Sequence record: PZ445498.1
Reading direction: 5' to 3' (one strand)
Origin: a phage
DNA length: 64,000 nt
The number at the start of each line of letters is the position of its first letter. Positions within the stretch are counted from its first letter, which is position 1. A model generated the notes under the pieces. The model saw nothing but the letters and a program-made list of their open reading frames with translations. It did no database searches and had not been told where the DNA came from. Positions 14,372 to 51,499 of this stretch are shown here, one piece after another. Position numbers and translations under genes: made by a program.

Positions 14372-14534
14372 ATTCTCCCTCCTTAATAAGGAACTCTTTC
14401 CATTCTGCTGTATCCTCATAGATAACGCAGAAATCATCACTCTTCCATGAGAAGTCATCAGTAGCAAATTCGAAACGGTAGCACCAACTACCATCTGGCC
14501 ATATTAAAAGATCACACATGCTTTTCTGGGACAT
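14352..14534 (-). CDS. hypothetical small protein
   Basis: Start at ATG 14534 with GGAGGG RBS; overlaps Sir2-like gene 3' end. Confidence 0.4.
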   Translation of the reverse strand: MSQKSMCDLLIWPDGSWCYRFEFATDDFSWKSDDFCVIYEDTAEWKEFLIKEGEYGEEDF

Positions 14535-42074: not shown

Positions 42075-42239
42075 ATGAAATTATTTCGTTTAAAGGTAAG
42101 TGATCTACGATCTAGCAAAGATCGTAAGAAGTATCCACTAGCCCATTACGGTAAAGATAAAAACGAAGTGATGGCGGAATTAGGAATCAATCATCCTTAC
42201 TTGAAAGTCTACTCTATTAAGGAAGTCTATGCTAATTAA
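42075..42239 (+). CDS. hypothetical small basic protein
   Basis: 54 aa ORF with AAGGA RBS between tRNA and endonuclease gene; below track size cutoff. Confidence 0.4.
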   Translation: MKLFRLKVSDLRSSKDRKKYPLAHYGKDKNEVMAELGINHPYLKVYSIKEVYAN

Positions 42240-42702
42240 TAAAGTTTTAGCTGCCTTAAACCTTCCTGATAACTTCATTATAGATGATAAGCTCATAAGA
42301 GCTTATATGAGCAAATATAACGAAATTTCGGGTAAAGAAGGTAAGTTAAAAACTTCAGAGTTTAGATTCTGTTATCGAATGGCAGCCTTAAATCTCTTAA
42401 AGTATAAAAGGGAGCATAAAATACCTATAACGGAAGGTTTTGTATATGTAATTGGTAATCCAGCATGGCCAGGCATGTATAAAATAGGTATGACTATAGA
42501 TGTGAATGAGAGGTTAGCAAGTTATCAAACTTATTCACCTAATAGAGACTACAAGCTATACCATTTCAGATTTTCGTCGGATAAAAGACGTACAGAGAAA
42601 GAATTACATAATCTTCTTAAAGATTATAGAGTATCTGGAGAGTGGTTTGAAGTACCTGTACTAGATGCTTTTAAATTATTAGTAGAAAAATTGGATTGCT
42701 AG
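42229..42702 (+). CDS. T5orf172 / GIY-YIG-like domain protein, putative homing endonuclease
   Basis: Motif GFVYVIGN...YKIGMT...ERLASY characteristic of the T5orf172 family; stop codon lies in tRNA-Lys 5' end. Confidence 0.65.
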   Translation: MLINKVLAALNLPDNFIIDDKLIRAYMSKYNEISGKEGKLKTSEFRFCYRMAALNLLKYKREHKIPITEGFVYVIGNPAWPGMYKIGMTIDVNERLASYQTYSPNRDYKLYHFRFSSDKRRTEKELHNLLKDYRVSGEWFEVPVLDAFKLLVEKLDC

Positions 42703-42770
42703 CTCAACTGGATAAGAGTAGCGGACCTTTAATCCGTCAGTTCTGGGTTCGAATCCCAGGCAATCCACCA
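42693..42770 (+). tRNA. tRNA-Lys (anticodon TTT)
   Basis: Acceptor GGATTGC/GCAATCC, anticodon arm GCGGA-CCTTTAA-TCCGT, T arm CTGGG-TTCGAAT-CCCAG, CCA. Confidence 0.85.
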
Positions 42771-42774
42771 AATT

Positions 42775-42848
42775 GCTCGGTTAGTTTAATGGTAGAACCC
42801 CGTCTTTACACGGCGGTTGCGATAGTTCGATTCTATCACCGAGTACCA
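42775..42848 (+). tRNA. tRNA-Val (anticodon TAC)
   Basis: Acceptor GCTCGGT/ACCGAGT, anticodon arm CCGTC-TTTACAC-GGCGG, T arm GATAG-TTCGATT-CTATC, CCA. Confidence 0.8.
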
Positions 42849-42874
42849 ATTAACTCAAAATAAGGAATTGCAAA

Positions 42875-43228
42875 TGCAATTATCAAGCAAGGTTCAAGGC
42901 TATTTCGGTCATGTAACAATGGAGTTCGCTATCTCTTAAAGGTTGGGACTTCGAACAAGATCTAGCTGAATTCTACAAAGATATTGATCTGAACGTACCA
43001 TACATAGGACTCTCCACTGGTCAAGAGATTACAGAAGCCGATGTATTCAAGGCAAGTCAAGGTGAGGTAACACCTAGTTTTGCCGAGTTCTGGTTAGGTA
43101 TCACACTGAAAGAAGATGCACCGGATGGTGGTGTGGTTATGCAGAGTATGCACTCTGGAAGCTCTGATTACCTTTTCGTTAGCGACGTTAAGGAACTACA
43201 AGAAATCGCTAAAAATGTACTTGCTTGA
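42875..43228 (+). pseudogene. ORF interrupted by in-frame TAA (21 codons, stop at 42938-42940, then ~95 more codons)
   Basis: ATG 42875 with AAGGA RBS; in-frame TAA; downstream frame stays open to TGA 43226-43228 with no ATG near its start. Confidence 0.35.
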
Positions 43229-43239
43229 TGCTTAATTTC
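43211..43239 (+). promoter_or_regulatory. early promoter ahead of ORF-free leader and tRNA-Ala/Leu
   Basis: TTGCTT-17-TATAAT plus TATAAATTGATGTGAAAATAG leader. Confidence 0.7.
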
Positions 43240-43604
43240 TTGTTATAATATTTATATAAATTGATGTGAAAATAGCTGCCTAGATATCAGGTGTATGACG
43301 TCTACACTAGCAGAGCTACCGAAAAAGAGATCCTCAGGATAAACGCCGTAGCAAAATTAGTCTGATATCCATCAATTTAGTTCACTAAGGTATTAGCTCG
43401 ACCTAGGACTGGCTGCCAAAAAGCACAGTTGCAATTAGACCCCCTAATGGCGGGGGATGCTTTGCAATAAGTTCTAGATTAGTCCACTAGATTCAGCGGC
43501 TACTGAATAGTGTATTGGGTTTGCGAGATGACGCGGTTCCTTCCGCTCGAAGCGAAGGTGCTGTAGTTACGCCGAGCTAATAGCCTTAGTAAACTAAAGA
43601 ATTT

Positions 43605-43679
43605 GGGCGGTTAGTTTATCTGGGAAAATACCTGACTTGCACTCAGGAGTGAGGAGTTCGACTCTCCTACTGTCCACCA
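43605..43679 (+). tRNA. tRNA-Ala (anticodon TGC)
   Basis: Acceptor GGGCGGT/ACTGTCC with G3-U70 wobble, anticodon arm CCTGA-CTTGCAC-TCAGG, T arm AGGAG-TTCGACT-CTCCT, CCA. Confidence 0.85.
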
Positions 43680-43684
43680 AATTC

Positions 43685-43769
43685 GGGGCTATGCTGGAAC
43701 TGGTAGACAATACGGCCTTAGATTCCGTAGCTTAAATGCGTGGGAGTTCGAGTCTCCCTAGCCCCACCA
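43685..43769 (+). tRNA. tRNA-Leu (anticodon TAG)
   Basis: Acceptor GGGGCTA/TAGCCCC, anticodon loop CTTAGAT, long variable arm, T arm GGGAG-TTCGAGT-CTCCC, A73, CCA. Confidence 0.7.
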
Positions 43770-43785
43770 ACTTATAGGATAATGT

Positions 43786-44370
43786 ATGCAGTTTGTACCA
43801 ATAAAAGATGCACCAGGGTATTTAGTAAATGAAACAGGGGATGTGTTATCTACATTTACTAATAAAATTTTATCAAGATATATAGTTGATGGATACCCTG
43901 CTGTAAAATTACAGATAAATGGTAAGCAAACTTCGGTACTTATACACCGAATTATTTCCCATGTATTTGGGGACTTATATAATCTATTTGATCCTGAATT
44001 AGAAGTAGATCACAAGGATAGAGATAGGCTGAATCTATCTAAAGATAATCTTCAAGTTTTATCAAAAATAGAACATCAGAAGAAAACTAATAAAGATAAT
44101 GGATGGTCTGATAGTAGAGTACCTTGCCCCTTATGTGGAAATCTAATGCTTCAGAGATCAGTAACATGTACAAATTGTAAGCCAAAACCTACAGGAAAGT
44201 TAATAAAACCAGAATTGTCCTTAGAAGACATAACTGAAAAGGTTTTATTAATGGGGTGGGTTAAGGCAGCTAAAGATCTAGAAGTATCAGAGTCCACTTT
44301 ACGTAGACGATATACTAAACTAACCGGATTAAGCCCAAAAGTATTAACAGAACAACGGAAAAGCAAATAG
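43786..44370 (+). CDS. HNH homing endonuclease
   Basis: Paralog of 40353-40934 (ELEVDHKDRDRLN, Cys4 cluster); 3' end overlaps tRNA-Ser. Confidence 0.7.
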   Translation: MQFVPIKDAPGYLVNETGDVLSTFTNKILSRYIVDGYPAVKLQINGKQTSVLIHRIISHVFGDLYNLFDPELEVDHKDRDRLNLSKDNLQVLSKIEHQKKTNKDNGWSDSRVPCPLCGNLMLQRSVTCTNCKPKPTGKLIKPELSLEDITEKVLLMGWVKAAKDLEVSESTLRRRYTKLTGLSPKVLTEQRKSK

Positions 44371-44450
44371 ACTGGTGACTAAACCCGATTGGAAATCGGT
44401 TGAGGGGTAGCAATACCGCCTTATGGGTTCAACTCCCATCTTTTCCGCCA
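44357..44450 (+). tRNA. tRNA-Ser (anticodon GGA)
   Basis: Acceptor GGAAAAG/CTTTTCC, anticodon arm CCGA-TTGGAAA-TCGG, long variable arm, T arm ATGGG-TTCAACT-CCCAT, G73, CCA; overlaps HNH stop. Confidence 0.7.
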
Positions 44451-50378: not shown

Positions 50379-51059
50379 ATGAGAATTATTAGTAAATGGG
50401 CAGATGTATACGATTTGCAGAACAGCTTGTTTGACCCCGATCGTGCTTGGGAGCGTAAAACTGAAGAGCTAACAATAAAGGCTCCAGATGATGGCAACTA
50501 CATGATTATGCAAGAACGTATGATTGCTCGTGTTGGTGAAAAGAAAGGCTATTTTAAAATTCTACCGTTTTTCCTAGCAGGAGAGATTTATTGGATGTAC
50601 CATATTGATGTATTGGATACTCAAGTAAAAACTTTCAATCTAGACAAAGCATTAGAAGTTTTGAAAGAGAATGGATGGTCAACGGGATTTTCTCTACTAG
50701 ATATAAATAGAGGAAAGCCAAAAGAATCTATTCTATCCTGGCAAGAGGAAGTTACCTCTAAAGCTGAAGAGGCCTTAGCTGAGTTAAGAGTACCTTTAGC
50801 GGTTCTAGACTCAGTAGTTCCAAATGATAAAGATAGTAATAAGTATTTCAAGGTTATAACTAACCCACGCCTACATCTATCAGGTATTCCGTGGCAGGAA
50901 GTTGAAAGCAACTTATACCGATTACACCAGAGAATTGAACAATATATCTGGGGCGTACTTGGAACAGGAGAACCAGATATTATTACCATTTCTGATAAAG
51001 ACCGCCTAGCAGCACATGGATTTGATACGGTTACGTCATTCAGGAATATGAAAAGATGA
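50379..51059 (+). CDS. hypothetical protein
   Basis: 226 aa ORF after promoter 50318-50346. Confidence 0.55.
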   Translation: MRIISKWADVYDLQNSLFDPDRAWERKTEELTIKAPDDGNYMIMQERMIARVGEKKGYFKILPFFLAGEIYWMYHIDVLDTQVKTFNLDKALEVLKENGWSTGFSLLDINRGKPKESILSWQEEVTSKAEEALAELRVPLAVLDSVVPNDKDSNKYFKVITNPRLHLSGIPWQEVESNLYRLHQRIEQYIWGVLGTGEPDIITISDKDRLAAHGFDTVTSFRNMKR

Positions 51060-51499
51060 TAAAAAACTTTATTAGTTCTCTATGGCAAGGTAAGTGGTAT
51101 ATCCTGGGAGCTGGTCTTGCGATAGGTATCGGATTCGGTGCTTATCATTTAGTAAATAAGGTCGAAACTTTAGCGGGAGATCTTGCAGTTGCGACTAAAA
51201 AGATCTCCACTCTAGAGACTTCTCTTAATAAAGTGAAAACTGAGAGTGAACTTCGTGAGACTCGAATGAACCAGTATTTTACAATGAATAATATTTCGCA
51301 AGCAGATCTAGACAAAAAGATTAAGCAGTTAGATAAAGCTCTTAGTCGTCAAGATGTTATTGCTGCAAAGCCTGGATTGGTAACATTAATTGCTAAAAAG
51401 CAGAATAAAGAGTTCGAGGAAAGATTAGCATGTTTAACTGGAAACTTGGAGTACTGCTCGCAGCCGCAATCACAATCACAGGCTGTGCAGAAGAAATAA
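51056..51499 (+). CDS. hypothetical membrane-anchored coiled-coil protein
   Basis: N-terminal TM helix then coiled-coil. Confidence 0.5.
   Translation: MIKNFISSLWQGKWYILGAGLAIGIGFGAYHLVNKVETLAGDLAVATKKISTLETSLNKVKTESELRETRMNQYFTMNNISQADLDKKIKQLDKALSRQDVIAAKPGLVTLIAKKQNKEFEERLACLTGNLEYCSQPQSQSQAVQKK

What the first reader, a model, noticed from the sequence alone, without database searches (positions are those of the whole stretch)
42875..43228. ORF interrupted by an in-frame TAA
A well-initiated ORF (AAGGA RBS, ATG 42875) hits TAA after 21 codons (42938-42940), but the same frame stays open for ~95 more codons to TGA 43226-43228, with no plausible start after the stop. This could be a recent nonsense mutation, a sequencing error, or programmed readthrough. 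No tRNA with a UUA anticodon was found in the cluster, so readthrough by a phage suppressor tRNA is not supported.
Basis: seen in the sequence. Interest (0 to 1): 0.5.

Follow-up and report, generated by a model that had tools for sequence, protein, structure and literature searches.

The report
One-base insertion breaks small phage gene
A small accessory gene of unknown function in this T5-like phage is cut in two by a single extra T (a frameshift, not an in-frame stop), which is an ordinary recent gene knockout or an assembly error and not programmed recoding.

Summary
The feature is real but was misdescribed. The ATG is at 42874 (not 42875) and its ORF ends at TAA 42937-42939. The long open stretch ending at TGA 43226-43228 is in the +1 frame, so the TAA is not in frame with it. 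ATG to TGA spans 355 nt, which is 3n+1. The window is an Epseptimavirus (T5-like, Demerecviridae). S114, EPS7 and ende annotate a 354-nt intact CDS here reading ATC TCT AAA GGT (phiR201: 375 nt, same junction). All 60 listed full-length matches span one base fewer than the query. The window reads ATC TCT TAA AGG, with one extra T. The repaired 117-aa protein matches PHROG 7572 (unknown function) end to end and folds as one confident domain. Helix 1 of that domain is the 21-codon stub. The insertion allele is absent from every collection searched. Four other deposited relatives carry different, independent lesions in this gene, and T5 lacks the gene entirely. It is the only gene split across two frames among 99 genes shared with phage ende. 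There is no suppressor tRNA, shifty site, stimulatory element or downstream start. Best reading: recent loss-of-function frameshift (about 0.66) or sequencing error (about 0.27) in a dispensable accessory gene. Ordinary.

The parts
42862..42866 (+). AAGGA ribosome-binding site, 7 nt upstream of the ATG
   Evidence: Read directly from the sequence. Identical in all aligned relatives. Annotated as an RBS in phiR201.
42874..42939 (+). N-terminal stub ORF: 21 codons (MQLSSKVQGYFGHVTMEFAIS) plus TAA created by the frameshift
   Evidence: 100% identical to residues 1-21 of ende_115. Corresponds to helix 1 (residues 5-21) of the predicted fold. Contains invariant F11 and H13.
42936..42937 (+). Site of the single extra T (TCT-AAA in relatives becomes TCT-T-AAA here). 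Which of the two Ts is the inserted one cannot be decided.
   Evidence: DNA alignments with S114, EPS7, phiR201, ende, PMBT27, KKP_3822 and MET_P1-88. Whole-window alignment against ende.
42938..43228 (+). Orphaned C-terminal 96 codons (KGWDF...KNVLA) plus TGA, in the +1 frame, with no start codon of their own
   Evidence: tblastn matches in relatives begin exactly at K = AAA 42938. 99% identical to residues 22-117 of ende_115. No ATG/GTG/TTG in this frame before 43133.
43199..43266 (+). P13b-like promoter overlapping the 3' end of the gene. It drives the downstream RNA2H-like/tRNA-Ala/tRNA-Leu unit and is not part of the lesion.
   Evidence: 90% identity to T5 promoter P13b (annotation). Annotated as 'Putative P13b-like' in S114.

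Best explanation
The locus is the ortholog of a conserved 117-aa Epseptimavirus accessory protein (ende_115 / EPS7 AGC_0071 / PHROG 7572, function unknown). In this genome it carries a single-base T insertion after codon 21.

Shown: the insertion shifts the frame by +1, creates a TAA immediately, and leaves the remaining 96 codons without a start codon.

Inferred: ribosomes starting at ATG 42874 make only a 21-residue peptide, which is helix 1 of a one-domain protein, and the rest is not translated. The gene is therefore functionally knocked out.

Inferred: the phage tolerates this because the gene is a dispensable cassette in the tRNA region. The event is very recent. Apart from the insertion, the gene differs from its closest relative by only one substitution.
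For: (1) Frames: ATG 42874 is in frame 1 and ends at TAA 42937. The open stretch to TGA 43226 is in frame 2. The span is 355 nt.

(2) Relatives: S114, EPS7 and ende annotate a 354-nt CDS and phiR201 a 375-nt CDS, all with the junction ATC TCT AAA GGT. The window has one extra T. All 60 listed full-length megablast matches span one base fewer than the query stretch they cover.

(3) One protein, one fold: the repaired protein matches PHROG 7572 over 1-116 of 117 residues, E = 3.6e-59. All 289 tblastn records cover at least 80% of it. The AlphaFold model of the intact ortholog has pLDDT 93.7 and pTM 0.85, a single domain, with helix 1 at residues 5-21. Invariant residues lie on both sides of the break.

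(4) Real gene: pN/pS = 0.16 among intact orthologs.

(5) Private and recent: the insertion allele has 0 hits in IMG/VR, JGI metagenomes and GTDB genomes, against 7 IMG/VR hits for the intact allele. Compared with ende there are 0 synonymous and 1 nonsynonymous differences.

(6) Dispensable and repeatedly broken: PMBT27 has TAC to TAG at codon 43. KKP_3822 has two 1-nt deletions. MET_P1-88 has a 1-nt deletion. TrudiRoth has a T5 to T6 insertion. T5 lacks the gene altogether. T5 variants that have lost 11 or 17 of 24 tRNA genes are viable (PMC12409363).

(7) Assembly quality: the indels in this assembly look real, not random errors. Net non-3n indels against ende are depleted from coding DNA (8 of 23 against 87.6% expected, P = 5e-9). 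Only this gene of 99 shared CDSs is split across frames.
Against: Without reads, a real mutation cannot be told apart from a single assembly or base-calling error at this position. The near-identity of the rest of the gene to ende fits both. Non-expression of the C-terminal part is inferred from the lack of a start codon and of recoding signals. It was not measured.
Confidence: 0.66

Rival explanations
1. Sequencing or assembly artefact. The phage really has the intact 354-nt gene, and the extra T is a base-calling or consensus error.
For: The allele is a singleton in all collections searched. The remainder of the gene is nearly identical to intact orthologs, with no secondary decay. A 1-nt indel is a typical consensus error. 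Several other deposited genomes also show 1-nt indels in this gene, and some of those could be errors too.
Against: The site is not a long homopolymer (T1 to T2 in CTCT-AAA). The assembly shows no general indel-error signature. Non-3n indels against ende avoid coding DNA (P = 5e-9), and no other shared gene is frame-split. PMBT27 carries a substitution (nonsense) in the same gene, which shows genuine inactivation does occur.
Confidence: 0.27
2. Programmed or fortuitous +1 ribosomal frameshifting at UCU-UAA-A, resembling antizyme UCC-UGA-U or prfB CUU-UGA-C. The ribosome pauses at the stop, skips the U, and makes the full-length protein.
For: The geometry is formally right. A sense codon followed by a stop, then skipping one base, restores exactly the ancestral reading ...AIS-KGWDF. 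The phage encodes its own tRNA-Ser(GGA).
Against: The site is not conserved: every relative examined at this junction (S114, EPS7, phiR201, ende, PMBT27, KKP_3822, MET_P1-88 and seven IMG/VR contigs) reads it in frame with no extra T. The only SD-like GGAG is 9 nt upstream of the UCU codon, not about 3 nt as in prfB. The 100 nt downstream fold less stably than shuffles, z = +1.0. tRNA-Ser cannot re-pair with the +1 codon CUU (inference from pairing rules). Lesions at four other positions in other phages cannot all be recoding sites.
Confidence: 0.03
3. Stop-codon readthrough by a suppressor tRNA or recoded TAA.
For: The phage carries 26 tRNA genes. In the T5 record, many tRNAs carry the note that replacing the anticodon with 5'-CAU-3' converts them into amber suppressors.
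Against: The TAA is not in frame with the conserved downstream sequence. Readthrough adds only 9 unrelated codons before TGA 42967. No tRNA has a UUA, CUA or UCA anticodon.
Confidence: 0.005
4. Two separate functional genes: a 21-aa micropeptide plus an independently initiated C-terminal protein.
For: Annotators of PMBT27, KKP_3822 and TrudiRoth called two CDSs at their broken copies.
Against: There is no ATG, GTG or TTG in frame 2 before 43133, which would give at most a 31-aa tail. No SD-like sequence precedes the near-cognate codons. The fold is a single domain with helix 1 packed into it. Intact single CDSs are the rule.
Confidence: 0.02

Closest known systems
ende_115 (YP_011112877.1, Salmonella phage ende) = EPS7 AGC_0071 (ACB97514.1) = S114 orf94; PHROG 7572 / pVOG VOG6934, hypothetical protein
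   Same: Same position (between tRNA-Val(UAC) and the P13b-like promoter). Same RBS and start. 99% amino-acid identity on both sides of the break. Full-length profile match once the extra T is removed.
   Different: The window's copy has one extra T after codon 21, so it is split across two frames. It also has M44I.
Independently inactivated copies of the same gene in Salmonella phages PMBT27, KKP_3822 and MET_P1-88 and Escherichia phage TrudiRoth (Bas30)
   Same: Same gene, disrupted by a small lesion in an otherwise well-conserved sequence and annotated as split or truncated CDSs.
   Different: Each lesion is at a different position and of a different kind: nonsense at codon 43, 1-nt deletions, and a T5 to T6 insertion. 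None shares the window's insertion.
Programmed +1 frameshift sites (E. coli prfB CUU-UGA-C; antizyme UCC-UGA-U)
   Same: A sense codon, then an in-frame stop, then restoration of the ORF by skipping one base (sequence).
   Different: There is no conservation, no correctly spaced SD-like stimulator, no downstream structure and no shift-prone P-site codon. This is a resemblance of geometry only.

Membership tests
PHROG 7572 / VOG6934 (Demerecviridae 117-aa protein of unknown function) | Full-length sequence match to the family profile | tested here: met
   The repaired protein matches profile positions 1-119 of 119, E = 3.6e-59. 24 homologs were found, all unnamed and without Pfam domains.
PHROG 7572 / VOG6934 (Demerecviridae 117-aa protein of unknown function) | Conserved synteny: between tRNA-Val(UAC) and the P13b-like promoter/tRNA-Ala | tested here: met
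   Same neighbours in S114, EPS7, phiR201, ende, PMBT27 and TrudiRoth.
PHROG 7572 / VOG6934 (Demerecviridae 117-aa protein of unknown function) | Single uninterrupted ORF encoding the whole domain (a functional member) | tested here: not met
   A 1-nt insertion splits it into frame 1 (codons 1-21) and frame 2 (codons 22-117). It is a disrupted member, that is, a pseudogene or an erroneous sequence.
Programmed +1 ribosomal frameshift site | The frameshift configuration is conserved among homologs | tested here: not met
   All aligned relatives read in frame with no extra base, and the allele has 0 hits in three large collections.
Programmed +1 ribosomal frameshift site | Stimulatory element (SD-like sequence about 3 nt upstream, or a downstream structure) | tested here: not met
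   GGAG lies 9 nt upstream. The downstream 100 nt have MFE -13.6 against a shuffle mean of -16.9, z = +1.0.
Programmed +1 ribosomal frameshift site | Measured production of the trans-frame protein | not testable with these tools
   Needs a reporter assay or proteomics.
Stop-codon readthrough / suppressor-tRNA recoding | The stop codon is in frame with the conserved downstream coding sequence | tested here: not met
   TAA 42937 is in frame 1 and the downstream ORF in frame 2. The frame-1 continuation stops after 9 codons.
Stop-codon readthrough / suppressor-tRNA recoding | A cognate suppressor tRNA is present | tested here: not met
   ARAGORN finds 26 tRNAs, all with sense anticodons.

The most novel reading that the evidence does not exclude
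This gene may be a hotspot for loss of function. At least five independent lesions were seen, at different positions in five phages (out of 289 matching records, which include GenBank/RefSeq duplicates of the same phages). The recurrence might reflect selection rather than neutral decay. For example, the small acidic protein (pI 4.2, a fold with no solved relative, invariant SMHSGSSDYL motif) could be sensed by a host defence system or be toxic on some propagation hosts, so that knockouts are escape mutants. The window's insertion would then be one such adaptive knockout.
Probability: 0.08. Interest if true: 0.55.

Novelty: already known. Interest (0 to 1): 0.1.

Why it matters
It matters mainly for annotation. 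The locus should be annotated as a frameshifted pseudogene (or corrected after checking the reads), not as two genes or as a recoding event. It also illustrates how an off-by-one count can turn a frameshift into an apparent 'in-frame stop'.

The only wider point is modest. This conserved T5-like accessory protein has a confident predicted fold with no solved relative, and it is broken repeatedly in sequenced isolates. That marks it as dispensable and possibly counter-selected on some hosts.

Tried and rejected
- **In-frame stop and readthrough:** rejected from the frames.
- **Suppressor tRNA:** none among 26 tRNAs.
- **+1 programmed frameshift:** no conservation, no SD at the right spacing, no downstream structure.
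- **Internal re-initiation:** no canonical start before 43133, and near-cognate codons lack an SD.
- **Transcriptional slippage:** no long A or T run at the site (sequence).
- **Shared allele elsewhere:** exact-match scans for the insertion allele in IMG/VR, JGI metagenomes and GTDB genomes all returned 0. Scans for the window's other private change (ATG to ATA at codon 44) also returned 0, so no nearer relative was found.
- **Function of the protein:**
  - Pfam gave nothing significant.
  - PADLOC gave nothing credible.
  - Foldseek against PDB had a best E of 3.9.
  - BFVD returned only uncharacterised proteins of T5-like phages.
  - The afdb50 library was unavailable.
- **Rfam on 42600-43800:** only the four tRNAs passed threshold.
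- **Generally error-prone assembly:** rejected.
- **Other apparent anomalies:** the Sir2-like stop and the ende_141 C-terminal shift were checked and turned out to be trivial C-terminal differences.

Full report
**1. Checking the observation**

The sequence shows AAGGA at 42862-42866 and an ATG at 42874-42876, not 42875. From that ATG, 21 sense codons (MQLSSKVQGYFGHVTMEFAIS) run to TAA at 42937-42939.

The long stop-free stretch that ends at TGA 43226-43228 is not in that frame. It is in the +1 frame, open from 42917 to 43225 (103 codons), and overlaps the short ORF by 23 nt. ATG to TGA spans 355 nt, which is 3n+1.

The feature is real, but it is a frame break, not an in-frame TAA.

About 2.7 open stretches of this length are expected from base composition alone in 64 kb. 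Homology, not length, is what makes this one meaningful.

**2. What the locus is**

The window is an Epseptimavirus (Demerecviridae, T5-like). Hundreds of Salmonella and Escherichia phage records match at 85-99%, but none is identical, so the window's own genome is not in the phage collection. The gene sits in the tRNA cluster (26 tRNA genes), between tRNA-Val(UAC) and a P13b-like promoter.

In S114, EPS7 and ende the same position carries one annotated 354-nt CDS for a 117-aa hypothetical protein. In phiR201 the CDS is 375 nt. DNA alignments show relatives reading ATC TCT AAA GGT where the window reads ATC TCT TAA AGG, a single extra T at 42936/42937. All 60 listed full-length megablast matches span one base fewer than the query stretch they cover.

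tblastn with ende_115 splits the window's copy cleanly. Residues 1-21 fall in frame 1 at 100% identity, and residues 22-117 in frame 2 at 99%.

**3. Both halves belong to one protein**

- With the T removed, the 117-aa product matches PHROG 7572 (unknown function) over its whole length, E = 3.6e-59. It also matches 289 phage records, all at 80% coverage or more.
- An alignment of 21 homologs has invariant residues on both sides of the break: F11, H13, G23-W24-D25, and the motif SMHSGSSDYL.
- AlphaFold2 on that alignment gives a confident single domain (pLDDT 93.7, pTM 0.85). Its first helix, residues 5-21, is essentially the 21-codon stub.
- Intact orthologs evolve under purifying selection, with mean pN/pS of 0.16 over 54 pairs. 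The gene is therefore genuine and functional in most relatives.

**4. How recent and how private the change is**

The insertion allele has no exact match in IMG/VR, JGI metagenome contigs or GTDB genomes. The intact junction occurs in 7 IMG/VR contigs.

Apart from the T, the window's gene differs from ende's by one nonsynonymous change (ATG to ATA, M44I) and no synonymous change. That substitution is also private. No secondary decay has accumulated, so the event is either very recent or an artefact.

**5. Dispensability and recurrence**

Four other deposited relatives carry different lesions in the same gene:

| Phage | Lesion |
|---|---|
| PMBT27 | TAC to TAG at codon 43 |
| KKP_3822 | two separate 1-nt deletions |
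| MET_P1-88 | one 1-nt deletion |
| TrudiRoth (Bas30) | T5 to T6 insertion, annotated as two CDSs |

Phage T5 itself lacks the gene. There, tRNA-Val runs directly into promoter P13b, and tblastn finds no homolog in the 22-kb tRNA region. T5 deletion variants that have lost 11 or 17 of the 24 tRNA genes are viable (PMC12409363). The gene is an accessory cassette that can be lost.

**6. Real mutation or error?**

I tested the assembly's general quality against phage ende.

- Of 111 ende CDSs, 87 are full length in a single frame in the window, 12 are absent (mosaic accessory genes), and the rest are cut by the window ends or differ at their C-termini. Only the ende_115 ortholog is split across two frames.
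- In 48.8 kb of alignment at 93% identity or more, which is 87.6% coding, only 8 of 23 net non-3n indel groups touch a CDS (binomial P = 5e-9). Only two lie more than 30 nt from a CDS end.
- One of those two is the finding. The other is a 34-nt difference at an ORF junction where both window ORFs are intact.

The indels in this assembly are therefore mostly real and selection-filtered, and the assembly is not error-prone. The site is also not a long homopolymer. This favours a genuine mutation, but one isolated consensus error cannot be excluded without reads. I put the real frameshift at about 0.66 and the artefact at about 0.27.

**7. Recoding alternatives**

- **Readthrough:** impossible as a rescue. 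The frame-1 continuation past the TAA ends after 9 codons, and no suppressor tRNA exists.
- **+1 frameshifting:** UCU-UAA-A has the right geometry and resembles antizyme UCC-UGA-U (resemblance recalled from general knowledge). It fails the defining tests. It is not conserved. The only SD-like GGAG is 9 nt upstream. The downstream RNA folds less stably than shuffled controls, z = +1.0. tRNA-Ser cannot re-pair with CUU (inference).
- **Internal initiation:** there is no canonical start in frame 2 before 43133.

**8. Function of the lost protein**

It is a small acidic protein (pI 4.2, 13 kDa) encoded in the tRNA region of the phage. By inference only, it may act as a host-interaction or accessory factor.

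**9. Verdict**

This is an ordinary single-base frameshift, either a recent pseudogenisation or an assembly error, in a dispensable conserved hypothetical gene of a T5-like phage. It is not programmed readthrough or recoding. Interest is low.

The one speculative angle is that five independent knockouts of the same small gene might reflect selection for loss, such as escape from a host defence. I give that about 8%.

Noticed in passing
[not shown]
   Followed up: partly
PMBT27 PP554578 (L013), KKP_3822 OQ674104 (L014), MET_P1-88 PV804860 (L015), TrudiRoth MZ501109 (L016): Four other deposited Epseptimavirus genomes carry independent disruptions of the same gene at different positions: a nonsense mutation, 1-nt deletions, and a T5 to T6 insertion. 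Their annotators called split or truncated CDSs.
   Followed up: yes
window 43369-43600: The spacer between the broken gene and tRNA-Ala is about 86% identical to the T5 region annotated as 'RNA2H, stable RNA with unknown functions'. Rfam has no family for it. Window 43199-43266 matches T5 promoter P13b.
   Followed up: partly
window 14512-14514 (minus strand): The Sir2-like gene (ortholog of ende_72) ends at a TGA where ende has CGA. This trims the last 7 residues. It is a trivial C-terminal difference, not a disruption.
   Followed up: yes
window ~54844: A 1-nt deletion in a C run (CCCC to CCC) 24 nt before the stop of the ende_141 ortholog (putative membrane protein). It changes only the last 6 residues and shortens the protein by 2 residues.
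   Followed up: yes
window 51051-51084: A 34-nt length difference from ende at the junction of the ende_135 and ende_136 (i-spanin) orthologs. In the window the two ORFs (50379-51059 and 51056-51499) are intact and overlap by 4 nt, against 44 nt in ende.
   Followed up: partly
window 42229-42702 / 42693-42770 and 43786-44370 / 44357-44450: Two homing-endonuclease-type ORFs overlap the 5' ends of tRNA genes by about 10-14 nt. One is a T5orf172-type ORF, called 'putative homing endonuclease' in TrudiRoth, and it overlaps tRNA-Lys(UUU). The other is an HNH endonuclease of the TflI/hegC type, and it overlaps tRNA-Ser(GGA). The same arrangement is annotated in T5 and relatives.
   Followed up: no
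L003 (Yersinia phage phiR2-01) 485-859: phiR201's ortholog has a divergent 3' end that gives a 124-aa product with a different C-terminal tail (…AISCISLMLNFLL). This looks like another small indel-driven change in this gene.
   Followed up: no
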